Positions 11,244 to 33,322 are shown, numbered from the stretch's first letter. The stretch is DNA of 45,277 nucleotides from Minisyncoccota bacterium (GCA_041657565.1 JBBABQ010000002.1:1-45277), one strand, 5' to 3'. The notes: generated by a model from the letters alone, not told the origin. Program-made: numbers and translations.

Positions 11244-11468
11244 CCTTGACTTTATTGCTATTTTATTTTGAAATGCCGGTTTCGGGCCGAAGAATGGAAA
11301 AGTATTGACAGGAGCTTTTAAAAAGAATATCAGGTTTAATAAGGCAAATTTAAAAACACGGAAATCTCTTGATGTTTGTACGGCTGTTGATCTAGGGTCG
11401 GAGCTGGTTTTAAGCTTTTTAGGCTAAAGGTCGGACGTTTAATAAAAATTAATTCAGAACAATATCAA

Positions 11469-11546
11469 ATGAAATTTGTCTTCAAAAAGGTAAAGTTATC
11501 CGCTCTTTATGAGATCAAAGCGGCTTGTCAAGATTGTCATTTCTAG
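11469..11546 (+). CDS. unannotated 25-aa ORF 'MKFVFKKVKLSALYEIKAACQDCHF', candidate RiPP precursor peptide
   Basis: ATG ORF below the 60-aa track cutoff. The N-half is basic and helical and the C-terminus has a CxxC. A 15-bp-stem terminator follows 6 nt later, and the rSAM/PqqD operon is immediately downstream. There is no clear SD. Confidence 0.4.
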   Translation: MKFVFKKVKLSALYEIKAACQDCHF

Positions 11547-11552
11547 TGGATG

Positions 11553-11595
11553 ATGCAAGACAAGAGTGTTGGTACTCTTGTCTTGCATTTTTTTT
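11553..11595 (+). terminator. very strong rho-independent terminator/attenuator
   Basis: Perfect 15-bp stem ATGCAAGACAAGAGT/ACTCTTGTCTTGCAT with a GTTGGT loop, followed by T8. Confidence 0.9.
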
Positions 11596-11611
11596 ATATC
11601 TTGTTTTGAAT

Positions 11612-11983
11612 ATGTATTCCCTCTATCTCTTATCGGAGAACGTCGGTTTGCGCAAAGAAAAAAAAGGCGGAGTGCTTCTCCTGAGGAATAAAGAAGACAA
11701 TTCTTTATTTTTTTATATACCGGACGATTTTGGGATTTTTTTAGAAATGAAGGAAGGGGGCCGCTGTCTTGGCGTCGATCTTTGCAAATTCAAAGACGCG
11801 GGCCGGATCATTCTGTTTTTGTCTTATATGATCAAGAACGGCATATTGGTTCACAAAAAAGATTGCTCCAAAAAAAGCGGTTGCGGCGCCAAATTCGTCG
11901 AGCTCAAGTCTGCCCCCAAGATGATCAGCCTGTTCATAACTCCAACCGTCCATTTCAGAAGATATTACGGATATGGCAACTGA
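11612..11983 (+). CDS. hypothetical protein (123 aa from ATG 11612), first gene of the rSAM operon; coding status uncertain
   Basis: The ORF-track start at 11525 (TTG) runs through the terminator hairpin, so I moved it to the first ATG. It overlaps the rSAM start by 11 nt. It has 5 Cys and the C-terminus 'HFRRYYGYGN'. I recognise no family. Confidence 0.3.
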   Translation: MYSLYLLSENVGLRKEKKGGVLLLRNKEDNSLFFYIPDDFGIFLEMKEGGRCLGVDLCKFKDAGRIILFLSYMIKNGILVHKKDCSKKSGCGAKFVELKSAPKMISLFITPTVHFRRYYGYGN

Positions 11984-12998
11984 TAATTTTAAATTAAAGT
12001 CTCCTCTTAAGGTGACCTTGAACGTTACCAACAGGTGCAATTTCAAGTGCGTCCATTGTTATAACGGCTCTTCATCGGGATGGGAAGGAGAAGAGTTGGG
12101 TTTGGCGGAAATAAAATCCCTCTTGAAAGAGCTTAAAAAGATGGAAGTTTTTTTGATATCCGTGAACGGCGGCGAACCTTTTTTGAGGAAAGATATTTTT
12201 GAGATACTGGAAGAGATAAACCGCCTTGGTTTTGTTTCCAATATAAATACGAATGCCTCATTGGTCACGCCGGAGATCGCCAAGAGGATGTCGGAATTGG
12301 GTTTTAAAAGCGTAGACGTCTCTTTGCACGCCGATAACAGAAAGAATTTTTTACGGTTTACGGGGTCGGAATTATTCGACCAAACAGCCGCCGGGATCAA
12401 AAATCTGATCAAGGCGGGAGTTCCTCCGAGCATCGCTTTTGTAGCTACTTCCGTGAACATCAGCTGGGCGTCGGACGTTGTAAAAACGGCCGCGAACCTG
12501 GGAGTAAGATCCATGCACACAATAGTCCTGGTCGAAAGAGGCAGGGCGGCCGGGAGCGGCCTGACCGTGAAAATGGCGGACTTGAAAAAAGCTTACGACA
12601 AGCTCATCAAGCAAGGGGAAAAATATAAGGTCGATCTCTTTTTGGAATGTCCGTTCAACTTGCACGAAGGGATCGCTTCCTACGGGATGGAGGATATTGA
12701 GATGGATGGAGGCTGTTTCGGCGGAAGGTATTTAGCTTGCGTCCAGGCGAACGGAGACGTTACGCCTTGCGCCCTTTTTCCCGATTACGTGGTCGGGAAC
12801 ATCAAACAAAAAAAGTTTTTCGATATTTGGAATTCTTCGGAGATGTCCGCGTTGGAAGGAGGAAAGTATGAACTGCCGGAAGGATGCGGACGCTGCGAGA
12901 TATTGGCAAAATGCCATGGCGGATGTCCGACATCAAGCTATTCTCCGGAGGGGTTCGTTCCGGACCATTTCTGCGTAAAAAACAAAAATAATAATTAA
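11973..12998 (+). CDS. radical SAM enzyme with C-terminal SPASM domain (peptide-modifying type)
   Basis: 'CNFKCVHC' CxxxCxxC cluster and 'NGGEPFL'. C-terminal block 'GGCFGG...ANGDVTPC...GNI...IW...CGRCEILAKCHGGC'. Confidence 0.9.
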   Translation: MATDNFKLKSPLKVTLNVTNRCNFKCVHCYNGSSSGWEGEELGLAEIKSLLKELKKMEVFLISVNGGEPFLRKDIFEILEEINRLGFVSNINTNASLVTPEIAKRMSELGFKSVDVSLHADNRKNFLRFTGSELFDQTAAGIKNLIKAGVPPSIAFVATSVNISWASDVVKTAANLGVRSMHTIVLVERGRAAGSGLTVKMADLKKAYDKLIKQGEKYKVDLFLECPFNLHEGIASYGMEDIEMDGGCFGGRYLACVQANGDVTPCALFPDYVVGNIKQKKFFDIWNSSEMSALEGGKYELPEGCGRCEILAKCHGGCPTSSYSPEGFVPDHFCVKNKNNN

Positions 12999-13008
12999 TA
13001 TATCTGAT

Positions 13009-13281
13009 ATGGCAAAAATAACATTCAATGAAGATCTTTTTTCCTTGGTCCCCTCGCCGGAAGATCCGGGAGTGGCTTTCGTTTTTAATAAGAAGGACGG
13101 TTCCATCTTCCAGATCGAAGGGGTTACCAAAGAGATAATAACCGGGCTGAAAGGCAAGAAAAAGGAGGAAGAATCTCTTGTCGACGCTTATATAGCTAAA
13201 TATAAAATGGGCGCCAAGGATGTAAAAAGTTTCAGATCTTTTTTGGCTAAAGTTAAAAAAGCCAGAGTTATCATTAACTGA
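13009..13281 (+). CDS. PqqD-like peptide chaperone / RiPP recognition element
   Basis: 90 aa. 'GVAFVFNKKDGSIFQIEGVTKEIITGL...SLVDAYIAKY...DVKSFRSFLAKVKKARVI' follows the PqqD-family pattern. It sits between the two rSAM genes. Confidence 0.7.
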   Translation: MAKITFNEDLFSLVPSPEDPGVAFVFNKKDGSIFQIEGVTKEIITGLKGKKKEEESLVDAYIAKYKMGAKDVKSFRSFLAKVKKARVIIN

Positions 13282-13288
13282 AAAGACC

Positions 13289-14275
13289 ATGCCAGCCTCC
13301 AAGGAAAAAACGAAATTTTATATCCAATGGCATCTTTCCGACAGGTGCAATTTAAGATGCAAGCATTGCTACGTTTCGGAGAGGAAGACGCACCTGCCTT
13401 TACCCAAGTTAAAAGACGGCATCGACAACGTGTTAAGGCCTGTTTCCAATTGGGTTGACGAGATCAGCGTTTGTTTGTCGGGAGGGGAGCCGTTTTTATA
13501 TCCTGACCTGGCAGAGATAGTCCTTCATCTTAAAAAATGGAAAAAGGTCAAAAAAATAATGTTTACCTCCAACGGGACGCTGGCCGATAAAAAACTTTTA
13601 GGCAAGATAGGGAAGCATATCGATAATATCCAAATAAGCCTGGAAGGAGGAAAAGAGGCGAACGATCAAATAAGAGGAGGCGGAGTCTACGACCTCGTAA
13701 AGAAGAATATTCCCGTATATAGATCGTTGGGATGCAAGATCGCTGTTAACATGACGGTTCACAAACTCAACTATAAGGAGATCCCGGCGGTTATAAAGTT
13801 TTGCGAGGACAATAAAGTCGATATTTTCGCAATCTCCCGCCTTGTTCCCATCGGTAGCAACAATGAGGTGGCGAAATTAATGCTTTCCAAGAAACAAACA
13901 GAAGAGATATATTCCGGCCTGGTTTTTTTGTCGAAAAAAAAGAAGCTGAAATTTTCTTTTAACAGAACCTTATGGAACATCATCGACAAAAAGATCGGCC
14001 ATCCTTGTTCTGTCGGATTGAACGCGGTTGCGATATTGGCGGACGGGACGCTTTTGCCTTGCCGCAGGCTGGAAATACCGATAGGGAATTTTTTGAACGG
14101 TGATTTTGTCGACGTTTGGCTAAACTCCCCCGTTTTGAATAAATTGAGAGATCGGGGGAAAATAAAAAAATGCGGCTCTTGCGAACATTTGGAAAAATGC
14201 GGAGGATGCAGGGCCGTAGCTTACGGAAAAACCGGGGATCTTTTATCAGAAGATCCTCAGTGTTTTAAACTATGA
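13289..14275 (+). CDS. radical SAM enzyme with C-terminal SPASM domain (second maturase)
   Basis: 'CNLRCKHC' and 'SGGEPFL'. C-terminal block 'CSVGLN...ADGTLLPC...IGNF...VW...CGSCEHLEKCGGC'. Confidence 0.9.
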   Translation: MPASKEKTKFYIQWHLSDRCNLRCKHCYVSERKTHLPLPKLKDGIDNVLRPVSNWVDEISVCLSGGEPFLYPDLAEIVLHLKKWKKVKKIMFTSNGTLADKKLLGKIGKHIDNIQISLEGGKEANDQIRGGGVYDLVKKNIPVYRSLGCKIAVNMTVHKLNYKEIPAVIKFCEDNKVDIFAISRLVPIGSNNEVAKLMLSKKQTEEIYSGLVFLSKKKKLKFSFNRTLWNIIDKKIGHPCSVGLNAVAILADGTLLPCRRLEIPIGNFLNGDFVDVWLNSPVLNKLRDRGKIKKCGSCEHLEKCGGCRAVAYGKTGDLLSEDPQCFKL

Positions 14276-14784
14276 GCATCTTTCCCAGACATGTTTCTGC
14301 GGGAGACAACGTCATTATCCATGTGAAAATGATGAATCTTTCTTCCGTCTGCTTGCCGGTCAGTTTGGATACTTATATCCAGAATAAAGACAGAGGATCA
14401 AAAAAATGGATAGTACGTGAAGGCTTTTTCCTCCTCCCTCCGGCCGAAGACGGGAAAGAAGGGGTTGTTGAAAGGTATTTTTCCGTTGCTACCGACGGGA
14501 AGATGCCGCTTGGGAGGTACGATTGCTTCACCAGTATCAAATATCTGGACAGGAAAAGCATGTCTTTGACCAAAAAAGACGACCATTTTTTTCTTGAAGA
14601 GATAACCATTTCGGTGGAAGGAAGCTCGATCATATTAAAAAACAGTTCTCCGGTCGCCGCCGGCGTTAAAATATACCGTATTGGGGGGAGTGCCACAAAA
14701 AAAATAAGGGGGCTGGGGAAGATCAAATTTCCGAGGGTAGGGTTTCTTTATGCTGTCTACGCCAACAATAGCATATTGACCTGA
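14272..14784 (+). CDS. hypothetical protein (170 aa), translationally coupled to rSAM-2
   Basis: ATGA overlap with 13289..14275. No signal peptide. The sequence looks beta-rich ('VSAGDNVIIHVKMMNLSSVCLPVSLDTYI' is CARDB-like). No family recognised. Confidence 0.6.
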   Translation: MSIFPRHVSAGDNVIIHVKMMNLSSVCLPVSLDTYIQNKDRGSKKWIVREGFFLLPPAEDGKEGVVERYFSVATDGKMPLGRYDCFTSIKYLDRKSMSLTKKDDHFFLEEITISVEGSSIILKNSSPVAAGVKIYRIGGSATKKIRGLGKIKFPRVGFLYAVYANNSILT

Positions 14785-16578: not shown

Positions 16579-17520
16579 CTATCCCCACGGGAATTCCCTT
16601 CCGAAATGGCCCCAAGCCGATGTCCGGCGGAATTTTATTTTTCCCAGGCTGAGGAACTCGTAAATTGCTTTAGGAGACAGATCATAGCCGATTATCTTTT
16701 CTTCTTTGCCGTCTATCTCGGCGACAGCCATTACCGGTTCTTTTTTTCCGATGGCGTAGGCAAGTTTGGTCCTGACGGTTTTCGCGCCACTTTTTTTCAA
16801 CAGATCGACGGCGATGCGGCGGGCCATATAGGCCCCGCTGCGGTCGACCTTGGTCCAGTCCTTGCCGGAAAAAGAGCCTCCTCCAACGCCGATCTCCGGG
16901 CCGTAGTTATCTATCATTATTTTTCTCCCGGAAAGGCCGGAATCCGCGTCAAACCCTCCCATCTCCCATTCGCCGGCCGGGTTGATCAGATATTCTTCGG
17001 ATTTTATCAAAGCGCAGACCGCTTTTTTGAGATCTTCCGTTTTTGTTTTTTGGAAGCTGGCGACGACGGTTTTTATCCGGCCGTCTTCGATCGTCACCTG
17101 CGTTTTCCCGTCGTAGGGAAACTGGCTGTAGAGTTTGTTGCAAAGCTTGCGGGCAAGCTCATATTCGAGGGGCATGAAATTATTGGTCTCGCTGGTGGCG
17201 TAGCCGATCATTATTCCCTGGTCGCCGGCGCCTCCGTTATTAACGCCTTTGGAAATGAAAGGGCTCTGCTGAGAAACGTAGATCTTCACGTTGTATTTTT
17301 GGCCGAGGATCTTTTTGATCGTGTCCTCGATGTTCAGTCTTGCTTCGCTGGTCACCTCGCCGGAAACGGAAATATTGTCATGGCCGCCCATGATCTCTAT
17401 CGCTACCCGGCTTTTCGGGTCGAGTTCCAGAAAAGCGTCCAGCAATATGTCGGCCAGGTAATCGCATAGCTTGTCGGGATGCCTTGGAGAAACGAATTCG
17501 CACGTTTTTGTGTTTGCCAT
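16579..17520 (-). CDS. metK: S-adenosylmethionine synthetase, compact 313-aa form
   Basis: 'GAGDQGIMIGYA', 'GGGSFSGKDWTKVDRSGAYMAR' and N-terminal 'SPRHPDKLCD'. It is preceded by a SAM-I riboswitch. Confidence 0.9.
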   Translation of the reverse strand: MANTKTCEFVSPRHPDKLCDYLADILLDAFLELDPKSRVAIEIMGGHDNISVSGEVTSEARLNIEDTIKKILGQKYNVKIYVSQQSPFISKGVNNGGAGDQGIMIGYATSETNNFMPLEYELARKLCNKLYSQFPYDGKTQVTIEDGRIKTVVASFQKTKTEDLKKAVCALIKSEEYLINPAGEWEMGGFDADSGLSGRKIMIDNYGPEIGVGGGSFSGKDWTKVDRSGAYMARRIAVDLLKKSGAKTVRTKLAYAIGKKEPVMAVAEIDGKEEKIIGYDLSPKAIYEFLSLGKIKFRRTSAWGHFGREFPWG

Positions 17521-17581: not shown

Positions 17582-17600
17582 TTTCAGCTTTTAAGCTAAT

Positions 17601-17700
17601 TTATCTTTCCCCGCGCGGGGGTTGGAGTTGGCACCTTTCGGAGGATTCCGATGGTTGCCAGCGGGTCGCAGAGCCAAATCTCTCGCCGCCTTCAAGATAA
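17601..17700 (-). promoter_or_regulatory. SAM-I (S-box) riboswitch aptamer
   Basis: The minus strand reads UUAUCUUGAAGGCGGCGAGAGAUUUGGCUCUGCGACCCGCUGGCAACC...AAGGUGCCAACUCC...CCCCGCGCGGGG AAAGAUAA. It has the P1 pair UUAUCUU/AAGAUAA and the conserved GGCAACC and GGUGCCAA-UCC blocks. It lies upstream of metK. Confidence 0.85.
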
Positions 17701-18036
17701 CTTATTCAATTTTGTTTTTTTATTATATTATATTTTTTCTTTTTTGGAAAGTTCTTGAATATTCGGGATATAAAACGAAACACCGGGGGTTAACCAGGTG
17801 TTATCGCAAGGGAGGCAGAAGATGAGGGTTTTGAGGGAGGGGATCAATTATGAAAATTGAAATAAAGTAAAAAAAAACGATAAGGCCTCTTAATATGAGA
17901 AACCTAAAAGAACATGCTGATATCCAGCTCGTGCCGTTGGGCAACAGTGTTGCAATAGGCAGGCGCGATATCAGGTAAATTTATTTTAACATCAGAGAAA
18001 TTGGTGTCAAGCCTTTTTGAGAAGGCGCCAGAGCAA

Positions 18037-19617: not shown

Positions 19618-20643
19618 ATGGTATCTCTAAGCCCATACTCGATCCCTCCGCTGGCAATTTCCATTCTGTTCCTGTTTTTGGGATCGGCAATTTATTTTAA
19701 GAACAAAAGATCGGCCGCCAATACTATTTTTGCCTTGCTTTCTCTCGTCACTTTTTGGTGGCAGTTTTCCTGGTTTGTGCTTTTCAATGTCCAAGATCCG
19801 GCCTTGGCTTCGATCCTTGTCAAGGTCGGTTACATGGGAATAATATTTATTCCCGTTTTTTTCTACCATTTTTTTCTTGCGTTCATGGGAAGGGTCAAGG
19901 GGCTAGATAAATACGCGCTGTATTTTATGTACGCAGCCAGCCTTTTTTTCGAGATATCTTTGTTTTCCACGAATTTTTTTATCCAAGGATATTACGAGTA
20001 TTTTTGGGGATTTTACCCCAAGGCCGGTATTCTGCATCCGGTATATCTGTTTTTTCTGACAGCCGTTTCGCTTAGGTCTGTTTTTCTTCTCTACAAGAGC
20101 TACCTCGAAGAGAAAGGCGGAGGTACCATAAAATCCAAGCAGACCAAGAATCTGCTGATCGGTCTTCTCATTTATTTCTCGGCTTCCACGGACTTTTTGG
20201 TGAATTACGGGATCGAATTCTACCCGCTCGGATTTATTTTTGTTTTCATCTGTTTGTCCATCATCGCTTACTCGATCTCCAAATATCATATGTTCGACAT
20301 AAGGGTCATTTTGACCGAAATGCTTGTCGGCATTATGGCGGTCGCTTCTTTTGTTGAGGCGCTTCTTTTTCAGGATCTTTGGACCAGGATCTTCGGCTTT
20401 GGTATTTTTGCCCTGCTGTGCGTTATAGGCTATTTGCTGACCAGGTATACCTATCGGGAAGTGCGCGCCAAGGAAAATTTCGAACAAATGGTCCAAGAGC
20501 GCACTAAAGAACTGGAACAGAGCAAGAAGGTCTCCGAGGACCGCGCCGCCGAGCTGGAGAAATGGTACAAGCTCACCATCGGCCGGGAACTCCGCATGGC
20601 CGAGCTCAAGGATAAAATAAAGGAGATGGAGGATAAGAAGTAA
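19618..20643 (+). CDS. multi-TM receptor-like protein (histidine-kinase N-terminal 7TM-like region) with conserved coiled-coil tail, no output domain; paralog 1 of 7
   Basis: About 9 hydrophobic helices, then the tail 'ERTKELEQSKKVSEDRAAELEKWYKLTIGRELRMAELKDKIKEMEDKK'. Confidence 0.8.
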   Translation: MVSLSPYSIPPLAISILFLFLGSAIYFKNKRSAANTIFALLSLVTFWWQFSWFVLFNVQDPALASILVKVGYMGIIFIPVFFYHFFLAFMGRVKGLDKYALYFMYAASLFFEISLFSTNFFIQGYYEYFWGFYPKAGILHPVYLFFLTAVSLRSVFLLYKSYLEEKGGGTIKSKQTKNLLIGLLIYFSASTDFLVNYGIEFYPLGFIFVFICLSIIAYSISKYHMFDIRVILTEMLVGIMAVASFVEALLFQDLWTRIFGFGIFALLCVIGYLLTRYTYREVRAKENFEQMVQERTKELEQSKKVSEDRAAELEKWYKLTIGRELRMAELKDKIKEMEDKK

Positions 20644-20654
20644 ATTTTAAAAAT

Positions 20655-21689
20655 ATGAATTTTTTCGCGATAATTTGTTTTATATGCGCTTCATTGGCTT
20701 TTTTTGCCGGTTATTCGGTTTGGATGTCCGGGTTCAGAAAAAAACTTAACCAATCTTGGGCGCTTTTTAATTTTTCCATAGCTATTTGGATGATCGGCTT
20801 GGGAGAAACAATGAACGTTGACAACGAACTCTCAGCTTTGGTGGCCCAGAAGATCCTTTATATAGGCACGATAATGATCCCTCTCTCTTTCTCTTATTTC
20901 GCCGCCTTGCTGTCCAAAAAAGAAGAAAACGCGGAGAAGCTTCTTTACATAAATTCTTCAGCAGCCGCCTTTTTCCTGGCAACGCTTTTTTTGGGAAGGT
21001 TTTTTATAGAAAAAATATTAGAAAGGACCGATTTCGGTTATTTTCCCATACAGGCCGGAACGCTTTATTATCCTTTTCTTGCTTGGTTCGCGGTGATGGT
21101 CATCTATGGTTTTGTCCTTTTGAGGGGCGGGTTGAGAAACAAGGCCGCTAGCGCGGTCGAGAAGCAGCAGATCAGCTTTATGATGTGGGGGGCGATGGTG
21201 GGATTTATCGCCGGTTCCGTTAATTTTTTGCTCGACTTCGGGATAGTTATCCCTCCGTTCTATAATCTTTTGGTCCCTTCCTATCTTTTGTTCGTCGGAT
21301 ACGCGATAGCGACCAAGCAATTTTTCGGGATCAAGGTGATCTTTACGGAAATGCTGGTGGTCGGGATGGGAATGATATTGATGGTTTTGCCGTTCTTCAT
21401 GCCGAATTTTATTTTGCAGGTTGTAATGGTGATGGTTTTCGTTGTTTTCTGCCTGTTCGGCTATATGCTGATAAGGTCAATGTTGAAAGAGGTCAGACAG
21501 AAAGATATTCTCGCCGGGATGGTCCAGGAGCGGACCAAAGAGCTCGAAGCGAGCAAAAAGGTTGCCGAAGAAAGGGCGGCCGAACTGGAGAAATGGTATA
21601 ATCTTACCATCGGCCGGGAGCTCCGTATGGCCGAATTGAAAGGCAAGATCAAAGAGATAGAGGATAAAAATAATCAGGCCAATAATTAA
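20655..21689 (+). CDS. same family, paralog 2
   Basis: Tail 'ERTKELEASKKVAEERAAELEKWYNLTIGRELRMAELKGKIKEIEDKN'. An 11-nt gap separates it from paralog 1. Confidence 0.8.
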   Translation: MNFFAIICFICASLAFFAGYSVWMSGFRKKLNQSWALFNFSIAIWMIGLGETMNVDNELSALVAQKILYIGTIMIPLSFSYFAALLSKKEENAEKLLYINSSAAAFFLATLFLGRFFIEKILERTDFGYFPIQAGTLYYPFLAWFAVMVIYGFVLLRGGLRNKAASAVEKQQISFMMWGAMVGFIAGSVNFLLDFGIVIPPFYNLLVPSYLLFVGYAIATKQFFGIKVIFTEMLVVGMGMILMVLPFFMPNFILQVVMVMVFVVFCLFGYMLIRSMLKEVRQKDILAGMVQERTKELEASKKVAEERAAELEKWYNLTIGRELRMAELKGKIKEIEDKNNQANN

Positions 21690-21696
21690 AATATTT

Positions 21697-22713
21697 ATGG
21701 ACCTTTATCCGGCAATTTTTTTCGTATCGGGAATATTAGCCGGTTTTGCCGGATTTTTGATCCTGGCCGCCAATATTAAAAGCCTCTTGAACCGATCTTG
21801 GTTCCTTTTCAATCTGTCCTTAATGGCTTGGCTTTTGGGTTTTGGTCTAGGTTTTACCTCCGATCCCGGGACAGCCGTTCTGGCGGAAAGGATTATGGAC
21901 GGAGGGACGATCTTTATACCCGTCTCCCTTCTTTATTTTGTTCTGATCCTGACTGGCCATTATGAAAAACGGAAATTATTCGTTGCGGCCAACGCTGCCA
22001 TCACGGCGGTTTTTCTGGCTTTGATGCTGTTCACAAACTTTTTTTTCGCGGGGTTGGGGGAGTTCGTGAAAGAAATGAATTATTACGTTTTTGATTATGG
22101 CTGGGCGTATTATCTTTTCTTGGTTTGGTTTGCCGCTCTCGCCGCCTACAATTTTTATTTTTTATTTTCGGAAGCGAAGAAAGAAAAGTCCGATCCGGTA
22201 AGAAAGCAACAGCTCAATTTCGTATTTTGGGGGATATTGATAACTTTCTTTTCCGGCTCTATCAATTTTTTGGTCGATTCCATCACCATACCGCTTTACT
22301 ACAATCTTCTGGTTCCTTTTTATTTGGTATTTGTCGGCTATGCTATTATCAGAAATCAACTTTTTGATATAAAGGTCATTGCCACGGAGATACTGGTCGG
22401 AGCCATGGGCTTTATACTTTTGGTCTTTCCGTTTTTAATGCCAAATAACAGCCTTAGGATATCGGCGGCGATCGTTTTTGCGGTTTTTTGCCTTATAGGC
22501 TACCTGCTTGTCAAAACGACCATGGAGGAGGTTAACGCCAAGGAATCTTTAGAGTTAAAGGTGAAAGAGCGCACAAAAGAGCTGGCCCAGGCCAATAAAG
22601 GATTACTGGAGAGGCAGGCGGAAGTCGAGAAATGGTACAAACTTACCATCGGACGCGAGCTGCGCATGGCCGAGTTGAAGGATAAAATAAAAGAGTTGGG
22701 CGGAACTAAATAG
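21697..22713 (+). CDS. same family, paralog 3
   Basis: Tail 'ERTKELAQANKGLLERQAEVEKWYKLTIGRELRMAELKDKIKELGG'. Confidence 0.8.
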   Translation: MDLYPAIFFVSGILAGFAGFLILAANIKSLLNRSWFLFNLSLMAWLLGFGLGFTSDPGTAVLAERIMDGGTIFIPVSLLYFVLILTGHYEKRKLFVAANAAITAVFLALMLFTNFFFAGLGEFVKEMNYYVFDYGWAYYLFLVWFAALAAYNFYFLFSEAKKEKSDPVRKQQLNFVFWGILITFFSGSINFLVDSITIPLYYNLLVPFYLVFVGYAIIRNQLFDIKVIATEILVGAMGFILLVFPFLMPNNSLRISAAIVFAVFCLIGYLLVKTTMEEVNAKESLELKVKERTKELAQANKGLLERQAEVEKWYKLTIGRELRMAELKDKIKELGGTK

Positions 22714-22716
22714 AAT

Positions 22717-23739
22717 ATGATAATAGAATCGATATTGGTACTCATTTTAATAGCTGCCTACAGCCTCATGGCTGTTTTGACCTTGTTTTCGAACCCAAAG
22801 AACAGAACCAACCAATCGTTCGCCTTGATGATGCTTTTTTTAATGCTTTGGAGCGCCAGCAATTATTACGAGAACGAACCGGTGGCGCGTTCTTTCGCTC
22901 CCTTGCTCCTTCGTTTTGATTTCGCTTTCGCGATCATGCTGGGCTTTTTTTTCTTCTTTTTCTGCCTCAATTTCCCCAAGCCGGGAAGCACTAGCCTCAA
23001 AAAGAAAATAGCGGCATTATTGCCGGCGTTAGCTCTCGCCGTCCTTTCTTTTGGGGATCTGGTCATAACAAATATCCGTTTTGACGAAGGGACGATAAAC
23101 AACGATGAAGGACCGCTTGGCCTTGTTTATTTCTTTTTTCTAGCTTTTTATATATTCGCCGGATGTTTGAAACTGGCCATGAGCCGCAGGAAGGCGACCG
23201 AGACCGAAAAGGTCCAGATATTTTATATCCTTTCCGGATTTTTCGTTTCGGGAACCATCGCTCTTATTTTCAATCAGCTTCTTCCGCTTTTTATGTTCGT
23301 TCCGATGGATATAGCGAGGATCGGTTTGTACGGAACCCTGATATTTTGCATTTCCGCTTCCGTTGCGATCTTGGAATACCACTTGTTCGAGATCAAACTT
23401 TTTTTAACTGAATTGTTGGTCGGGGGGATGGGGATAGCCCTCCTTCTTCTGCCTTTTTTGACAAACGATCCCAGTCTAAAGTTTTTAACTTCTTTGATAT
23501 TCCTTTTCCATTGTTTCTCCGGCTATCTTTTGATCAGGGCCACAAGAAAGGAAGTGAACGAGAAGCTTTATTTAGAGGAGAAGGTCCGCGAGCGTACAGA
23601 AGAGCTTGAACAGAGCAAGAAGGTCGCCGAGGACCGCGCCGCCGAGCTGGAGAAATGGTACAAGCTCACCATCGGCCGCGAGATGCGCATGGCCGAGTTG
23701 AAGGATAAAATAAAGGAAATGGAGGACAAAAAACTATGA
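22717..23739 (+). CDS. same family, paralog 4
   Basis: Tail 'ERTEELEQSKKVAEDRAAELEKWYKLTIGREMRMAELKDKIKEMEDKK'. Confidence 0.8.
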   Translation: MIIESILVLILIAAYSLMAVLTLFSNPKNRTNQSFALMMLFLMLWSASNYYENEPVARSFAPLLLRFDFAFAIMLGFFFFFFCLNFPKPGSTSLKKKIAALLPALALAVLSFGDLVITNIRFDEGTINNDEGPLGLVYFFFLAFYIFAGCLKLAMSRRKATETEKVQIFYILSGFFVSGTIALIFNQLLPLFMFVPMDIARIGLYGTLIFCISASVAILEYHLFEIKLFLTELLVGGMGIALLLLPFLTNDPSLKFLTSLIFLFHCFSGYLLIRATRKEVNEKLYLEEKVRERTEELEQSKKVAEDRAAELEKWYKLTIGREMRMAELKDKIKEMEDKKL

Positions 23740-24776
23740 TCAGCTATTTTGCTTTATCGGGCTTAATAAACGCCATATCGACGATTGTACTTGGCTCTTT
23801 TGTCTATCTAAAGAACAAAAGATCCCCAGTCTCCAAGACCTTCGCGGCTTTTTGTCTTAGCGTGGCCTCTTGGTCTTTCTTTTATTTCCTTTGGCTTTTC
23901 ATCGGGACAACCAAAGAATCGGCCCTTTTTTACTCCACTGCCTTAAACATGGGGGCGATATTCACTCCTTCGACCTTCCTCCATTTCGTAGTTGTCTTCT
24001 TGGGGATATACGAAAAAAAGAAGCCGATCATCATTTTCGGATACCTTTTCTCTTTTGTTATTTTCCTGACGGGTTTTTTCTCTTTGTTCGTAACCGGGGT
24101 CAGAACGCAAGGATCCATCGAATGGTATCCGATACCCGGACCGTCTTATCATCCTTTCCTTGTAATGTTTGCCGGTTATGTTATATACGGCTGGTATTTG
24201 ATGATAAAAACCCTCGATAAGGCCGCAGGCAAAAAAAATCTTCCGGTAATTTATATTTTGATCGGTTCGTTTGTCGGTTTTGCCGGAGGCTCAACGAATT
24301 TTTTAAATCTATATAATATTCCCATTCCGCCATACGGGAACGGCCTGGTTATTTTTATAGCCATTTTTACTTTCTTGGCGATTTCCAAATATCATCTCTT
24401 TGAGATCGGGGCCATATTAACGGAACTCCTGGTTATCATTATGGCCGGAGTTTCCCTTGTGGAGGCCTTGCTTTTCCAGGATCCCGGAAATAGGCTTTTT
24501 GGCTTGGGGGTTTTTGTTTTATTCTGTTTTTTAGGATATCTTTTGATAAGAAGCATGCAGAAAGAATTAGAAGCCAAAGACCTCCTGGAGCAGAAGGTCC
24601 AGGAGCGCACCAAAGAGCTCCAGGGTTCGAACGAAAAGCTGACAAAAACCTATGAAGAGCTTCAGGAGAGGCAAAAAGAGCTTGAAAAATGGTATAATCT
24701 TACCATTGGCCGGGAACTCCGCATGGCCGAGCTTAAAGAGAAAATAAAAGAGATAGAGGGGAAGGGCGGGAAATAG
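23736..24776 (+). CDS. same family, paralog 5
   Basis: ATGA overlap with paralog 4. Tail '...ERQKELEKWYNLTIGRELRMAELKEKIKEIEGK'. Confidence 0.8.
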   Translation: MISYFALSGLINAISTIVLGSFVYLKNKRSPVSKTFAAFCLSVASWSFFYFLWLFIGTTKESALFYSTALNMGAIFTPSTFLHFVVVFLGIYEKKKPIIIFGYLFSFVIFLTGFFSLFVTGVRTQGSIEWYPIPGPSYHPFLVMFAGYVIYGWYLMIKTLDKAAGKKNLPVIYILIGSFVGFAGGSTNFLNLYNIPIPPYGNGLVIFIAIFTFLAISKYHLFEIGAILTELLVIIMAGVSLVEALLFQDPGNRLFGLGVFVLFCFLGYLLIRSMQKELEAKDLLEQKVQERTKELQGSNEKLTKTYEELQERQKELEKWYNLTIGRELRMAELKEKIKEIEGKGGK

Positions 24777-24845: not shown

Positions 24846-25118
24846 ATGAAAACAATAGCCGCAATGATCATTTTTTTAAGCTCGTTCTTCTTGCTTAAAA
24901 ATCTCGGCATAATACAAGTCGATTTTGATTTTTGGGGAGTGTTCTGGCCGTTGATCTTCCTAACCATCGGTTTGAAGATCCTTTTTAGCTCAAAGCCGGA
25001 GAGGAAATATACCGCTTGGGGATGGGGAGCCGGTCCCAGGTTCGACCAGAGAGATCAGGGTTGCGACTGCGAAAAACCCGATTGCAGCTGCAAGAATAGC
25101 GGAGATGATCATTCTTAA
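24846..25118 (+). CDS. small 2-TM membrane protein (LiaF/LiaI-like TM region) with Cys-rich acidic tail
   Basis: 'FFLLKNLGII...FWGVFWPLIFLTIGLKILF', then 'DQGCDCEKPDCSCKNSGDD'. Confidence 0.6.
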   Translation: MKTIAAMIIFLSSFFLLKNLGIIQVDFDFWGVFWPLIFLTIGLKILFSSKPERKYTAWGWGAGPRFDQRDQGCDCEKPDCSCKNSGDDHS

Positions 25119-25150
25119 TAGCCGCATGCTTGCGGTATGTTCAAACATAT

Positions 25151-25402
25151 ATGGAAGAGGAAAAATTCAATAGAGAAGAGTTTAAAGTTTCCGGGGACCA
25201 GCTGGTCGCCAAGATCAAACAGCTGGTCAACGAAGGAAACGTCCGCCGGATCATAATAAAAAAGGAGGGCGGGGAGACCTTGATGGAGCTTCCTTTGACC
25301 GTGGCGGTTGTCGGTACGGTTTTTGCTCCCATACTGGCAGCTGTCGGCGCGCTGGCGGCTTTGGTCGCGAATTGTACGATCATAGTCGAAAGGAAGAAGT
25401 AA
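25151..25402 (+). CDS. DUF4342-like small membrane-associated protein
   Basis: 'FKVSGDQLVAKIKQLVNEGNVRRIIIKKEGGETLMELPLTVAVVGTVFAPILAAVGALAAL'. The ATG at 25151 is preferred over the TTG at 25130. Confidence 0.7.
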   Translation: MEEEKFNREEFKVSGDQLVAKIKQLVNEGNVRRIIIKKEGGETLMELPLTVAVVGTVFAPILAAVGALAALVANCTIIVERKK

Positions 25403-25427
25403 AGCTTTGGCAGCTTTTTAGCATTCG

Positions 25428-25457
25428 CCCCCTGCTTCAACGGCAGGGGGTTTTGTT
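25428..25457 (+). terminator. rho-independent terminator
   Basis: Stem CCCCCTGC/GCAGGGGG with a 7-nt loop, then a T-rich tract. Confidence 0.8.
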
Positions 25458-30813: not shown

Positions 30814-31851
30814 ATGCTCGGAATAGACCCGTCGCTCGTTCTTCAAGTTCTTACTATTTTCCTTTGGTCGGGAGCGGTTTTGAGTTTGTTTTTCGGGATG
30901 TTCACCTGGCTGCAGGATAAAAGATCTCCCATTAACATTCTTTTTGTTCTGGTCACCGCGTCTGTTTCCATTTGGCTCGGCGCAAGCGTTCCAATGCTTA
31001 ACAGTTGTAAGGCAGCGGAAGCAGCCGCTTATTTTTGGGATAAAGTGGTCTATTGCGGAGTGGTTTTCATCCCTATATTTCTTCTCCATTTTTCTTTGAT
31101 AATGTCGAAAGAGAAAAGGAAAATATACAAAGTCCTCTTGCCCATCGGTTATGTTCTGGCGACCGTCTTTTTGATCTCGATCTGGTTCTTCCCGCAATTT
31201 TTCATACAGGGCCTTTTCAAGTACGACTGGGGCTGCCACAGCATCGCCCAGCCCGGCCATAATCTTTTTCTGGCTTACTTTGTCGGCTATCTGCTCTTGT
31301 TCTTTTATAAGATGTTCAAGCTTTGGAGGGGTTCAAAAGATCCGGTTTTGAAAATACAAAGCAAATACATTTTTTATTCTTTCATGTTTCTGTTTGCCAG
31401 CTCCTTGGCCTTTTTGCCAGGGTATAAAATACCGGTTTTTCCCATCGCTTATATTTTCCCCTTGATCTGGGTGCTTATCCTGACCTATGCCATTACCCAG
31501 CACAGCCTTTTGAACGCCAAAGTGATTTTCGTCGACGTCCTGGCCGCCTTGGTGGTCTTTACCGTTTTGGTTTACGCTTTGCTTTCCAAGGGAACCAATG
31601 ACGTTGTTATCAGAATTTCTTTTTTCGCCCTCATTCTTGTTTTTGCCTGGCTGGCCGTCAGGGGCGTGCATCGCGAGATCAATGAAAAACAGCGTTTGGA
31701 AAAATTGGTGGCGGAAAGGACAAAAGAGGTTATGGAGAGATCGGCGGAATTGGAGAAATGGTACAAACTTACCGTCGGCCGCGAGATAAGGATGGCCGAG
31801 CTTAAGAAGCAGATACAAGGGATGGAAGAAGAAGCGAAAACAAAACAATGA
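30814..31851 (+). CDS. multi-TM receptor-like protein with conserved coiled-coil tail, paralog 6
   Basis: Tail 'ERTKEVMERSAELEKWYKLTVGREIRMAELKKQIQGMEEE'. Confidence 0.8.
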   Translation: MLGIDPSLVLQVLTIFLWSGAVLSLFFGMFTWLQDKRSPINILFVLVTASVSIWLGASVPMLNSCKAAEAAAYFWDKVVYCGVVFIPIFLLHFSLIMSKEKRKIYKVLLPIGYVLATVFLISIWFFPQFFIQGLFKYDWGCHSIAQPGHNLFLAYFVGYLLLFFYKMFKLWRGSKDPVLKIQSKYIFYSFMFLFASSLAFLPGYKIPVFPIAYIFPLIWVLILTYAITQHSLLNAKVIFVDVLAALVVFTVLVYALLSKGTNDVVIRISFFALILVFAWLAVRGVHREINEKQRLEKLVAERTKEVMERSAELEKWYKLTVGREIRMAELKKQIQGMEEEAKTKQ

Positions 31852-32936
31852 TCGATATATCCGCCAACATCGATCCGGACCTGTTTCTTCAAATTCTCAC
31901 GATCTTCCTTTGGTCAGGAGCCGCTTTGAGCGTATTTTTTGGGATATTCACCTGGTTACAAGGCAAAAGATCCCCGATCAACATTCTTTTTGCCTTGGCT
32001 GCTGTTTGCGTAGCTCTTTTTATGGGTGCTAGCGCGGGGATGCTTAATAATTGCGGGACGGAGTGGAAGGCATATTTTTGGGACAAAATAGTTTACTGCC
32101 AGGCGGTTTTCATTCCGATCCTTCTTTTGCATTTTTCAATGGTTTTTTCCAAAGAAAAGAATAGAATTTTAAGAGCTTTGGTCCCTTTGGGGTATTTTTT
32201 TGCTTTTTCCTTTCTCTCTATTGTATTTTTTTTCCCTCAATTTTTAATTCAAGGACTTTTTAATTATACGTGGGGCTGCCACAGCATCGCCCAGCCCGGC
32301 CATAATTATCTTTTGGTTTATTTTATTTCTTTCCTCTCTCTATTTTTTGGCAAGACTTTTGTCCTGTGGAGAAAAACCCAAGATCCGGTCTTGAAGGTCC
32401 AAAGCAAATATATTTTTATTTCTTTTTTATTTCTTTTTTGCTGCTCTTTAGCTTTTTTGCCCGGATATAAAATACCTATCTGGCCTATCGTGTATGTTTC
32501 TCCTTTGATATGGCTGCTCATTCTGACCTATGTGATCACCAAGCACAGCCTTTTGAACGCTAAAGTGATCATCGTCGATGTCCTCGCCGCCTTAGTTGTT
32601 TTTACCGCTTTTGTTTACGCGGTCGTTTCGAAAGATTCCACAGACAGGGTCATAAGAATAATATTTTTCTTTTTGATATTGGTGTTCGGCTGGCTGGCCG
32701 CCAGGGGCGTGCATCGCGAGATAGACGAAAACGACCGGCTGGAAGCCATTGTCGCGGACAGGACAAAAGAGCTTGAGCAGTCAAAACAAGTAGCCGAAGA
32801 AAGAGCAAAGGAGCTGGAAAAATGGTATAATCTGACCGTCGGCAGGGAACTTAGGATGGCCGAGCTTAAGAAGCAGATACAAGGGTTGGAGGGAGAGTTG
32901 AAAACAAAAGATGATAAGCCAAGAAATAATCAATAA
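31848..32936 (+). CDS. same family, paralog 7 (close duplicate of paralog 6)
   Basis: ATGA overlap with paralog 6. Tail 'DRTKELEQSKQVAEERAKELEKWYNLTVGRELRMAELKKQIQGLEGE'. Confidence 0.8.
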   Translation: MIDISANIDPDLFLQILTIFLWSGAALSVFFGIFTWLQGKRSPINILFALAAVCVALFMGASAGMLNNCGTEWKAYFWDKIVYCQAVFIPILLLHFSMVFSKEKNRILRALVPLGYFFAFSFLSIVFFFPQFLIQGLFNYTWGCHSIAQPGHNYLLVYFISFLSLFFGKTFVLWRKTQDPVLKVQSKYIFISFLFLFCCSLAFLPGYKIPIWPIVYVSPLIWLLILTYVITKHSLLNAKVIIVDVLAALVVFTAFVYAVVSKDSTDRVIRIIFFFLILVFGWLAARGVHREIDENDRLEAIVADRTKELEQSKQVAEERAKELEKWYNLTVGRELRMAELKKQIQGLEGELKTKDDKPRNNQ

Positions 32937-32953: not shown

Positions 32954-33322
32954 ATGACACAGAAAGTTTTATTGGCGGAAGATGACCCGTTTCTTATCGA
33001 TATTTATACAACCAAGCTGGCGAACAGCGGATTCGACATGGCCGTGGCAAAGACGGGAGATGAAGTCCTGTCCGGCCTGAGAGAGCGGATGCCGGACATA
33101 TTGCTTTTGGATATAGTGCTGCCGGGAATGTCCGGATGGGAGGTCCTCTCCGAGATCAGGAAGGATCCGAAATTCAACGATCTGAAAATAATAATTCTTT
33201 CCAATCTTGGCCAGAAGAACGAAGTGGAAAAGGGGCTGGAAATGGGGGCTGTCGGTTATTTGGTCAAAGCTCATTACACTCCGACCCAGATAGTCGAAGA
33301 GATAAGAAAGATATTGGGATAA
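32954..33322 (+). CDS. stand-alone response-regulator receiver domain (CheY-like)
   Basis: 'LLAEDDPF', phospho-Asp context 'ILLLDIVLPGMSG', 'IIILSNL' and 'GYLVKA'. There is no output domain. Confidence 0.85.
   Translation: MTQKVLLAEDDPFLIDIYTTKLANSGFDMAVAKTGDEVLSGLRERMPDILLLDIVLPGMSGWEVLSEIRKDPKFNDLKIIILSNLGQKNEVEKGLEMGAVGYLVKAHYTPTQIVEEIRKILG

What the first reader, a model, noticed from the sequence alone, without database searches (positions are those of the whole stretch)
19618..24776. Five-gene tandem array of output-less multi-TM receptor-like proteins that all end in the same coiled-coil tail
What the sequence shows:
- Five consecutive ORFs of 338-346 aa are separated by 11, 7 and 3 nt and an ATGA overlap, so this is one operon.
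- Each has about 9 hydrophobic helices. The first seven have the look of the N-terminal 7TM region found on many histidine kinases (N-terminal '..KN(K/R)RS..N..FAL...W', a loop motif G(F/Y)(Y/F)P..G..(H/Y)P, and 'KYH(L/M)F(D/E)I').
- Each then has a ~60-aa cytoplasmic helix ending the protein: 'ERTKELE..KKVAE(D/E)RAAELEKWY(K/N)LTIGRELRMAELK(D/E)KIKE(M/I)E'.
- No DHp/HisKA, ATPase, GGDEF, PAS or other output domain follows.
- The TM regions are strongly diverged between copies (roughly a quarter identity by eye between copies 1 and 4), while the tails are nearly invariant.
- Two more copies lie at 30814-32936.

Inference: this looks like a family of sensors with diversified input modules that converge, through a common docking or oligomerisation helix, on one shared partner. 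The partner could be a kinase, the orphan receiver domain, or each other as hetero-oligomers. I know of no described signalling system with this architecture.
Basis: partly seen in the sequence, partly recalled or inferred. Interest (0 to 1): 0.82.

Follow-up and report, generated by a model that had tools for sequence, protein, structure and literature searches.

The report
Kinase-less membrane sensors with a shared docking tail
Seven neighbouring genes encode membrane sensors that have lost their kinase and end instead in a short, highly conserved helix; that same helix turns out to cap thousands of otherwise output-less sensor proteins across bacteria and archaea, usually right next to a separately encoded kinase.

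Summary
There are five tandem genes (19618-24776) and two more (30814-32936). Each encodes a 9-TM protein: Pfam HisKA_7TM, two further TM helices, then one unbroken cytoplasmic helix. That helix carries an S-helix 'ERT' signature and ends in ELEKWYxLT(I/V)GRExRMAELK. No output domain follows, and there is no room for kinase remnants.

The tail is not specific to this family. A tail-only profile finds 1,451 protein clusters (50% identity). The motif lies 8-56 residues from the C-terminus (mostly 9-25) of 7TM, PAS, GAF, HAMP, Cache, propeller and REC-PAS proteins in Bacteria and Archaea. None of 91 scanned carries a catalytic domain. Neither Pfam nor NCBIfam models it.

Outside the 7TM class, tail genes are typically followed immediately by a short histidine kinase whose N-terminus carries 'RALLNILED' repeats (26/28, against 9/47 for other kinases in the same loci). 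The reverse search gives 56/70. No convincing fused form was found.

I read the tail as the coupling helix of sensors that signal in trans to a separately encoded kinase and a REC-only regulator. One caveat matters: no 7TM-type tail gene sits beside a NILED kinase. Their recurrent neighbours are REC-only genes (7/18 arrays) and full-length 7TM kinases (5/18). The partner of the window's seven copies is therefore inferred, not shown.

The parts
19618..20643 (+). Copy 1: 341-aa 9-TM sensor (HisKA_7TM + 2 TM + tail)
   Evidence: One search gives the ORF. PF16927, E 1.1e-17. AF2 model with pLDDT 89.9 and nine TM helices; 48-51% identical to full-length 7TM kinases such as P0010 and P0012.
20655..21689 (+). 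Copy 2: 344-aa paralog
   Evidence: (PF16927, E 1.8e-10).
21697..22713 (+). Copy 3: 338-aa paralog
   Evidence: (E 2.7e-12).
22717..23739 (+). Copy 4: 340-aa paralog
   Evidence: (E 2.5e-11). One search adds a sub-threshold NCBIfam LIC10906-family hit.
23736..24776 (+). Copy 5: 346-aa paralog, with a linker one heptad longer
   Evidence: E 8.9e-15; TM9-to-GRE distance 53 instead of 46.
30814..31851 (+). Copy 6: 345-aa paralog, with a linker one heptad shorter
   Evidence: E 2.3e-10; distance 39.
31848..32936 (+). Copy 7: 362-aa paralog
   Evidence: (E 1.5e-08). It is 69% identical to copy 6 in the TM region.
32954..33322 (+). REC-only response regulator (122 aa), 17 nt downstream of copy 7
   Evidence: Response_reg, E 8e-23. 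The acidic pocket, the LLLD phospho-acceptor Asp, the Ser and the Lys are all visible in the sequence; its closest relatives are the syntenic REC (74%) and the second REC of [tail][NILED-PAS-kinase][REC][REC] operons (44-51%).
20497..20643 (+). Tail of copy 1: S-helix ERT signature (20497-20514) through the core ELEKWYKLTIGRELRMAELKDKI (20551-20619) to the stop
21528..21689 (+). Tail of copy 2 (core 21582-21650)
22567..22713 (+). Tail of copy 3 (core 22621-22689)
23590..23739 (+). Tail of copy 4 (core 23644-23712)
24603..24776 (+). Tail of copy 5 (core 24678-24746)
31714..31851 (+). Tail of copy 6 (core 31747-31815)
32757..32936 (+). Tail of copy 7 (core 32811-32879)

Best explanation
The seven genes encode the sensor halves of two-component sensor kinases, with the kinase half encoded elsewhere.

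Anatomy (shown). Each protein is a 9-TM receptor whose last TM helix runs straight on into a cytoplasmic coiled-coil helix. That helix contains the S-helix 'ERT' switch and ends in a roughly 30-residue cap, ELE(K/R)(W/F)(Y/H/Q)xLT(I/V)GRExRMxELK. In full-length paralogs the DHp-CA kinase core begins directly after TM9.

Mechanism (inferred). A ligand or membrane signal sensed by the diversified TM bundle, probably through the outside loop-4 beta-hairpin, changes the register or rotation of the dimeric helix. The cap passes that change in trans to a separately encoded histidine kinase, which phosphorylates the REC-only regulator encoded after copy 7. Several sensors with different inputs and the same cap would then feed one phosphorylation pathway.

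Shown: the anatomy, the heptad-locked linker, the purifying selection, the wide occurrence of the cap on output-less sensors, and its reciprocal gene adjacency with NILED-headed kinases in other sensor families.

Inferred: physical docking, and the identity of the kinase for this 7TM subclass. The candidates are a NILED-headed kinase elsewhere in the genome or a full-length 7TM kinase paralog.
For: 1. Sensor identity. All seven proteins hit HisKA_7TM above threshold. The AF2 model has nine TM helices and a continuous TM9-tail helix. The only fold matches are weak GPCR-like 7TM bundles, with no transporter or enzyme.
2. Same sensor, fused or capped. Copy 1 is 48-51% identical to full-length 7TM-HisKA-HATPase kinases such as P0010 and P0012. 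In those kinases TM9 leads straight to the H-box and the cap is absent.
3. Phase-locked linker. The TM9-to-GRE distances are 39, 46, 53 and 60 residues in 52 of 60 proteins. The other eight values (18-42) include the 7TM-GAF protein P0040, and at least some of them (e.g. the 42s) look like TM-end miscalls. In three kinases counted by hand, the TM9-to-His distances are 33, 40 and 47.
4. Portable terminal module. A 7TM-GAF protein ends in the same cap. The cap also sits near the C-terminus of multi-PAS, GAF, Reg_prop/Y_Y_Y and REC-PAS proteins from Actinomycetes, Planctomycetota, Methanosarcinales, Woesearchaeota and others. A tail-only profile finds 1,451 clusters at E<=1e-3. In three samples the motif ends 9-37, 8-50 and 11-56 residues from the C-terminus.
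5. No catalytic output. The 91 tail-bearing representatives carry only sensor or transducer domains and no HisKA, HATPase, GGDEF, EAL or HD.
6. Forward adjacency. Of the 28 kinases immediately downstream of tail genes, 26 carry NILED-like motifs before the H-box. Only 9 of 47 other kinases in the same loci do (Fisher p 2e-10).
7. Reverse adjacency. Of 70 kinase ORFs with RALLNILED in the first 110 aa, 56 have a tail-ending ORF that stops within 200 nt upstream. That ORF is mostly in another frame, 56 against 7.
8. Position of the break. In unsplit Patescibacteria kinases the ERT helix runs directly into LLNILED, so the cap sits exactly at the break point.
9. Link to the window. The window's REC is most similar to the second REC of such operons. 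One Paceibacterota genome (JBAZHV01) holds 7TM-tail genes (L018), a 7TM-GAF-tail gene (L020) and a tail gene followed by a NILED-PAS-kinase and two RECs (L034).
Against: - None of 66 7TM-type tail ORFs is directly followed by a NILED kinase.
- No NILED motif occurs in any frame of the 45-kb window.
- The only kinases within 10 kb of 7TM-tail arrays are full-length 7TM kinases without NILED, plus the window's unrelated periplasmic-sensor kinase.
- The 7TM subclass has its own tail flavour (EKWY...RMAELK). NILED-adjacent tails read ERF(Q/H)...RM(I/V)ELK.
- No convincing natural fusion of tail and NILED was found, so there is no Rosetta stone. The one apparent fusion, P0272, looks like a frameshift artefact.
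- Physical contact was not tested, because no multimer modelling was available.
- Many of the metagenome pairs are close relatives, so the counts are not independent events.
Confidence: 0.55

Rival explanations
1. The 7TM-tail proteins act on their full-length 7TM kinase paralogs. They hetero-oligomerise through the conserved TM8-TM9 and juxtamembrane region and modulate or poison the kinase, as co-sensors or dominant-negative subunits. The tail lies alongside the kinase's DHp.
For: A full-length 7TM-HisKA-HATPase gene lies within 2.5 kb of 5 of 18 7TM-tail arrays, often only 1-20 nt away and followed by a REC-only gene (L004, L005, L007, L018). TM8-TM9 and the juxtamembrane segment are the best-conserved part between the kinase and tail forms.
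Against: The adjacent kinase and tail protein are only 31% identical over 178 residues, so they are not recent duplicates. The window and its syntenic relatives have arrays of 5-8 copies with no 7TM kinase within 10 kb. This model does not explain why the same cap sits on soluble PAS, GAF and REC proteins across phyla and pairs with NILED kinases. Profile comparison finds no similarity between the tail and the paralogs' DHp.
Confidence: 0.2
2. The tail binds the REC-only regulator directly. The sensors then recruit, sequester or release the regulator at the membrane without controlling a kinase.
For: A REC-only gene follows 7 of 18 7TM-tail arrays by 16-101 nt, including the window's copies 6 and 7.
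Against: The five-copy array and its 6-8-copy syntenic relatives have no REC gene nearby. In the other sensor families the tightly coupled neighbour (overlap or a gap of at most 6 nt) is the kinase, not the REC. There is no known precedent for REC binding in this motif; that is from my own knowledge, not tested.
Confidence: 0.1
3. The tail is only a generic coiled-coil oligomerisation or stability cap. The proteins have a non-signalling membrane function (transport, enzyme or structural).
For: No function has been shown experimentally. Foldseek matches are weak (E >= 3.5e-3).
Against: R323, E324, M327, E329, L330 and K331 are invariant across 73 proteins, against a mean column identity of 29%. 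The core is conserved between Archaea and Actinomycetes. The link to NILED kinases is specific and reciprocal. Every accompanying domain is a sensor or transducer domain. No transporter or enzyme family hit was found.
Confidence: 0.08
4. The genes are decaying, truncated histidine-kinase pseudogenes.
For: Full-length kinase paralogs exist.
Against: Gaps of 3-11 nt or overlaps leave no room for kinase remnants. All seven ORFs are intact. The tail is under purifying selection with many synonymous differences. The same architecture recurs in dozens of genomes, with 5-8 copies at the syntenic site.
Confidence: 0.02

Closest known systems
Full-length HisKA_7TM histidine kinases of Patescibacteria (e.g. 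P0010, P0012, P0026; the 512-aa kinases in L004/L005)
   Same: They share the 9-TM sensor (up to about 50% identity to copy 1), the conserved KYHLF.IK..LTE motif at TM7-TM8, and a heptad-periodic helix leaving TM9. They are sometimes encoded next to the tail forms and a REC-only gene.
   Different: In the kinases TM9 leads directly to the H-box, DHp and HATPase_c (33-47 residues to the His). The window proteins have ERT plus the cap and stop there, with no His and no ATPase.
S-helix (signaling helix) of sensor kinases, cyclases and phosphatases (Anantharaman, Balaji & Aravind 2006, PMC1592074)
   Same: The tail has a parallel coiled-coil segment with the ERT signature immediately after the sensor or TM module. 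R295 and T296 are nearly invariant.
   Different: [quoted passage not shown] Here it is followed only by a roughly 30-residue cap and the C-terminus.
Chemoreceptor (MCP)-CheW-CheA arrays
   Same: This is a working analogy only. Many receptors with divergent inputs have no catalytic domain and share one highly conserved helical element that controls a separately encoded histidine kinase and a CheY-like REC-only regulator. This comparison rests on my own knowledge.
   Different: There is no MCPsignal domain, no hairpin tip, no CheW/CheA and no methylation sites. The kinase partner is a class I HisKA kinase.
Docking domains of modular polyketide/non-ribosomal peptide synthases
   Same: This is an analogy. 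A short C-terminal helix on one polypeptide is matched to an N-terminal coiled-coil head on the protein encoded immediately downstream (my own knowledge). The same gene order and end-to-end logic are seen for tail and NILED.
   Different: The sequences and the pathway are unrelated, and interaction here is inferred only.
Known split or modulated kinases: CheA3/CheA4 (PMC3591291), and RetS-GacS and DivL-CckA (the last two from my own knowledge)
   Same: A kinase function is distributed over, or controlled by, a second sensor-like polypeptide.
   Different: CheA3/CheA4 split the phospho-acceptor from the catalytic domain. RetS and DivL keep a DHp-like domain. Here the break lies between the sensor/S-helix and the kinase, and it is marked by two dedicated terminal motifs.

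Membership tests
HisKA_7TM (Pfam PF16927) sensor domain family | Match to the Pfam model above its gathering score | tested here: met
   All seven proteins score 35.2-65.1 bits against a cut-off of 28.6, covering about 220 of the 224 model positions.
Histidine kinase (class I, HisKA/HATPase_c) | DHp domain with a phospho-acceptor His (H-box) | tested here: not met
   There is no HisKA hit at E<=1 and none at E<=5 on two tails scanned alone. No His occurs from ERT to the stop in any copy. hhalign of the tail against the paralogs' DHp gives probability 1%.
Histidine kinase (class I, HisKA/HATPase_c) | HATPase_c catalytic domain | tested here: not met
   No hit was found. The proteins end 10-18 residues after the GRExRMAELK motif (7-15 after the defined core), and gaps of 3-11 nt leave no downstream remnant.
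S-helix-containing signalling proteins (PMC1592074) | Conserved ERT signature in a heptad-periodic helix | tested here: met
   (E/D)RT is present in all seven copies. R295 and T296 are at least 90% conserved in 73 homologs. The linker is heptad-periodic.
S-helix-containing signalling proteins (PMC1592074) | Located between two signalling domains, with an output domain downstream | tested here: not met
   Nothing follows except the cap and the C-terminus.
Tail-capped ('GRELRM') output-less sensors, the class defined here | Core motif LT(I/V)GRExRMxELK within about 10-40 residues of the C-terminus, after a sensor/transducer module and with no catalytic domain | tested here: met
   All seven copies meet it. 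The class comprises 1,451 clusters, with sensor-only domain content.
Tail-capped sensors paired with a NILED-headed kinase | Gene immediately downstream encodes a kinase with (R)ALLNILED repeat(s) before the H-box | tested here: not met
   The window has no NILED motif in six frames. None of 66 7TM-type tail ORFs has such a neighbour, against 83 of the 148 other tail ORFs.
Methyl-accepting chemotaxis proteins | MCPsignal domain | tested here: not met
   No Pfam or NCBIfam hit.
7TMR-DISM receptors | Match to 7TMR-DISM_7TM above threshold | tested here: not met
   Only copy 7 gives a sub-threshold hit (13.8 bits against 29).
Transporter or enzyme families | Sequence or fold match to a known transporter or enzyme | tested here: not met
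   No significant match in Pfam, NCBIfam or PDB sequences. Foldseek against PDB returns only weak GPCR-like bundles.

The most novel reading that the evidence does not exclude
The C-terminal 'GRELRM' cap and the N-terminal 'NILED' head form a universal, portable plug-and-socket pair. It would let independently evolving sensor proteins (7TM, PAS, GAF, HAMP, Cache, REC) attach non-covalently to a histidine kinase in Bacteria and Archaea. On this reading, the arrays of 5-12 capped 7TM receptors per roughly 1-Mb Patescibacteria genome are a fast-evolving receptor repertoire that feeds one kinase and one REC-only regulator. That would be a chemoreceptor-like many-to-one design in classical two-component signalling.
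Probability: 0.35. Interest if true: 0.88.

Novelty: new variant of a known kind. Interest (0 to 1): 0.74.

Why it matters
Sensor proteins annotated only as 'PAS domain S-box protein' or 'histidine kinase N-terminal 7TM domain-containing protein' are usually treated as orphans without an output. This work shows that a large class of them (at least 1,451 clusters) shares one unannotated terminal motif. Outside the 7TM class, that motif predicts the partner gene, a kinase with a matching unannotated head.

If the two motifs dock, three things follow. Thousands of orphan sensors gain an output. Sensor-kinase wiring could be predicted from sequence. Synthetic biology would gain a natural, compact (about 30 aa) connector for re-wiring sensors to kinases.

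For Patescibacteria, whose genomes are tiny, seven copies in 13 kb (12 in a relative) mark this as a major investment in sensing. The targets could be host or community cues.

Tried and rejected
1. Tail as a degenerate H-box. By eye, GRELRMA resembles SHELRTP. hhalign of the tail alignment against the DHp of 31 paralogous kinases gave probability 1%. Pfam HisKA did not hit the tails even at E<=5. BLAST of an adjacent kinase/tail pair aligned the tail to a non-H-box region. The register also differs. I dropped this as unsupported.

2. Rosetta-stone search. I queried with an artificial tail+NILED sequence to find natural fusions. No convincing fusion appeared among 120 hits. P0272 looks like a frameshifted read-through.

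3. Read-through or recoding between the tail ORF and the kinase ORF. I rejected this because most pairs are in different frames (56 against 7) and many overlap as ATGA.

4. Gene conversion as the cause of tail identity. I rejected this on the synonymous differences.

5. Conserved neighbour families, by all-against-all clustering of flanking ORFs. Nothing was universal beyond REC and kinase genes.

6. Encapsulin-type cargo peptide (LTVG resemblance). I rejected this on reasoning alone: the tail is a helical coiled coil attached to polytopic membrane proteins.

7. Literature. Searches for HisKA_7TM, the motif strings and split or bipartite kinases found no description of this module. The search covers open-access text only.

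8. A related-loci run with the NILED alignment failed because no stretch was conserved enough. I replaced it with a DNA pattern scan.

Full report
OBSERVATION. The ORF list confirms five co-directional genes at 19618-24776, encoding proteins of 341, 344, 338, 340 and 346 aa. They are separated by 11, 7 and 3 nt and then overlap by 4 nt. Two more genes lie at 30814-32936 (345 and 362 aa, overlapping by 4 nt). A 122-aa receiver-only gene starts 17 nt after the last copy. All seven proteins match Pfam HisKA_7TM above its gathering score. None matches HisKA, HATPase_c, PAS, GGDEF or any other output family, and NCBIfam adds nothing significant. The alignment shows the invariant tail E.EKWY.LT.GRE.RMAELK..I. 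Mean pairwise identity is 28% over residues 1-283 and 64% in the tail. In 19 of 21 pairs, about 30-55% of codons for identical core residues differ synonymously; the two closest pairs differ in 3/23 and 3/18. The tail is therefore held by purifying selection, not by gene conversion. The AlphaFold2 model of copy 1 (pLDDT 89.9) has nine TM helices and a beta-hairpin (122-136) in the fourth loop. By the positive-inside rule that loop faces outward. TM9 continues as a single helix through 254-340. The scan shows no strong GC-rich hairpin inside the array; the best candidate terminator is at 25427-25451.

CONTEXT. The window looks like a Patescibacteria (Paceibacterota) genome, because its closest homologs carry that name. 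It is syntenic with contigs L001-L003. In those contigs the same site, between an MBL-fold gene and DUF4342/HIT/FtsZ, holds 6 to 8 copies instead of 5. The reference contig JBBABZ010000006.1 carries 11 tail genes and another contig of that genome carries one more. The window also encodes a conventional periplasmic-sensor kinase (9876-11243), which shows no link to the array.

WHAT THE FAMILY IS. A search with copy 1 returned two kinds of relatives. About 60 are proteins of 330-365 aa with the same tail, and the motif always ends 9-15 residues from the C-terminus. About 45 are full-length 7TM-HisKA-HATPase kinases of 520-560 aa, up to 51% identical to copy 1. That is closer than copy 1 is to its own neighbours (24-35%). 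In the kinases TM9 leads straight to the H-box and the tail motif is absent. The same sensor therefore exists either fused to a kinase core or capped by the tail.

The distance from TM9 to GRE is 39, 46, 53 or 60 residues in 52 of 60 proteins. The other eight values (18-42) include the 7TM-GAF protein P0040, and at least some of them (e.g. the 42s) look like TM-end miscalls. In three kinases counted by hand, the TM9-to-His distance is 33, 40 or 47. Strict heptad periodicity is the mark of a phase-sensitive coiled coil. The first half of the tail carries the 'ERT' signature of the S-helix (PMC1592074). That element is described as lying almost always between two signalling domains, whereas here it is terminal. 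A 518-aa 7TM-GAF protein (P0040) ends in the same cap, which shows that the cap is a portable module.

THE CAP IS WIDESPREAD. A scan of one genome per species, with patterns taken from the cap, found it at the C-terminus of proteins of 94-914 aa. The hosts include Actinomycetes, Planctomycetota, Alphaproteobacteria, Neomarinimicrobiota, Saccharibacteria, Methanosarcinales, Thermoplasmatales, Woesearchaeota and others. Ten of these proteins are multi-PAS, GAF, Reg_prop/Y_Y_Y or REC-PAS proteins without any output domain. A 35-column tail profile searched against 1.84 billion representatives found 1,451 clusters at E<=1e-3, and the match almost always ends at the protein's end. Among 91 representatives of at least 150 aa, the only Pfam families are sensor or transducer domains: HisKA_7TM 42, GAF 12, PAS 11, HAMP 6, dCache 2, 7TMR-DISM 2, and Reg_prop, REC and Cache_3-Cache_2 once each. 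None has HisKA, HATPase_c, GGDEF, EAL or HD. Pfam has no model for the cap.

THE PARTNER IN OTHER FAMILIES. Of the 74 tail genes with a downstream ORF on the same strand, 28 are followed by a histidine kinase. The start usually lies between -3 and +6 nt of the stop, and most of these kinases are 300-440 aa. The N-termini of these kinases carry one to four 'xRALLNILEDxxxE' units, about 21 residues apart, before the H-box. Among kinases immediately downstream of tail genes, 26 of 28 have such a motif, against 9 of 47 other kinases in the same loci (Fisher p 2e-10). Most of those nine lie one gene further along in the same operon.

The reverse test started from an independent metagenome scan for RALLNILED. 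Of 70 kinase ORFs with the motif in the first 110 residues, 56 have a cap-ending ORF that stops within 200 nt upstream. Five of the 13 with no upstream tail ORF run off the contig. The two ORFs are mostly in different frames (56 against 7), so these are separate, translationally coupled genes rather than read-through. In unsplit Patescibacteria kinases of about 520 aa the order is PAS-ERT-LLNILED-PAS-DHp. The cap therefore sits exactly where the polypeptide is broken. No convincing natural protein with both motifs was found.

MECHANISM. The best-supported reading is that the cap is the coupling element of a sensor that works in trans on a separately encoded kinase. The sensor dimer's coiled coil ends in the cap. 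The kinase dimer's coiled coil begins with the NILED head. Docking of the two would restore the signalling helix. What is shown is the architecture and the reciprocal adjacency. What is inferred is the contact.

For the window's own subclass the chain is weaker. None of 66 7TM-type cap genes is next to a NILED kinase, and the window has no NILED motif. The subclass also has its own flavour of the cap (EKWY...RMAELK). Its recurrent neighbours are REC-only genes (7 of 18 arrays) and full-length 7TM kinases (5 of 18), as in [7TM kinase][7TM-cap x1-6][REC] in L004, L005, L007 and L018.

Two observations still tie the window to the general system. Its REC is most similar (44-51%) to the second REC of [cap][NILED-PAS-kinase][REC][REC] operons of other Patescibacteria. 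One Paceibacterota genome also contains both 7TM-cap genes and a cap/NILED-kinase operon (L018, L020 and L034).

I therefore commit to 'trans-acting sensor subunits of a kinase to REC-only pathway, coupled through the cap' at 0.55. The main rival, at 0.2, is hetero-oligomerisation with 7TM kinase paralogs. Direct REC binding stands at 0.1.

COMPARISON AND NOVELTY. The proteins are members of the HisKA_7TM family and carry an S-helix. They are not histidine kinases, since both the H-box and the ATPase were tested and found absent. They are not chemoreceptors either. Functionally they resemble chemoreceptors, which are many catalytic-domain-less receptors sharing one conserved kinase-control element. 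The end-to-end gene logic resembles PKS/NRPS docking domains. Known split kinases (CheA3/CheA4, PMC3591291) are split at a different point. I found no description of the cap or the NILED head in Pfam, NCBIfam or the searchable literature. That search is limited to open-access text, so prior description cannot be excluded. I rate the finding as a new variant of a known kind, namely two-component signalling with sensor and kinase on separate, motif-matched polypeptides.

LIMITS. No multimer modelling or whole-genome census was possible. The metagenome pairs include many close relatives. The motif regexes miss divergent variants, for example the KEWFLSDVN(R/K)ELE class seen.

Noticed in passing
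window 17598-17703 (-), upstream of 16579-17520 (-): A SAM riboswitch (Rfam RF00162, 64 bits) lies in the leader of the S-adenosylmethionine synthetase gene. This is an ordinary arrangement.
   Followed up: partly
window 7297-14784; compare L001-L003 and L007 1803-3804: A block holds an 860-aa Big_13 protein, a periplasmic-sensor histidine kinase (9876-11243), two radical-SAM/SPASM genes (11973-14275) and three ORFs with no confident family hit (11525-11983, 14272-14784, and the 860-aa ORF beyond its Big_13 domain). It is inserted between the beta-CASP and ExoVII genes relative to the syntenic contigs. A radical-SAM/SPASM pair also sits directly upstream of a 7TM-tail array in L007. A modified peptide could be a ligand for these receptors, but this is pure speculation.
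   Followed up: no
window 19618-24776 versus L002 8943-15227 and L001/L011 8943-17390: The array at the same syntenic site has 5, 6 or 8 copies in related genomes. This indicates rapid gain and loss of receptor paralogs.
   Followed up: partly
P0007, P0009, P0015, P0017, P0018: A second class of ~349-aa 7TM proteins ends in a different but alignable tail...LLKEWFLSDVN(R/K)ELE.N.LK..I.ELE. It may be a diverged cap with another partner.
   Followed up: no
L027, L028, L035, L041, L063, L070, L075, L084 kinase N-termini: The 'RALLNILED' units recur one to four times, about 21 residues (three heptads) apart. The number of units might set how many sensors can dock.
   Followed up: no
P0272: This is the single protein in which the cap is followed by a NILED-like segment in one chain. 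The intervening sequence looks like an out-of-frame translation of the intergenic region, so it is probably an assembly frameshift.
   Followed up: partly
window 24846-25118 and 25130-25402: Two 90-aa ORFs follow the array here, and small ORFs (one annotated DUF4342) follow it in L001/L002. The first is a 2-TM protein with a Cys-rich tail. The strongest terminator-like hairpin (25427-25451) comes after them, so they may belong to the same transcript.
   Followed up: no
window 40263-41363: A fructose-1,6-bisphosphatase of the PF01950 family (E 4e-158) sits in this Patescibacteria-like window, next to PPDK, acetyl-CoA synthetase and GAPDH. From my own knowledge this is the archaeal-type FBP aldolase/phosphatase.
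   Followed up: no
L019 10196-11587 and L055 3577-4917: A ~450-aa protein beginning MxxxxVGxGIS sits between a capped sensor and the NILED-PAS kinase in two Patescibacteria operons. By eye it looks FIST-like; this was not tested. It may be an additional sensor component.
   Followed up: no
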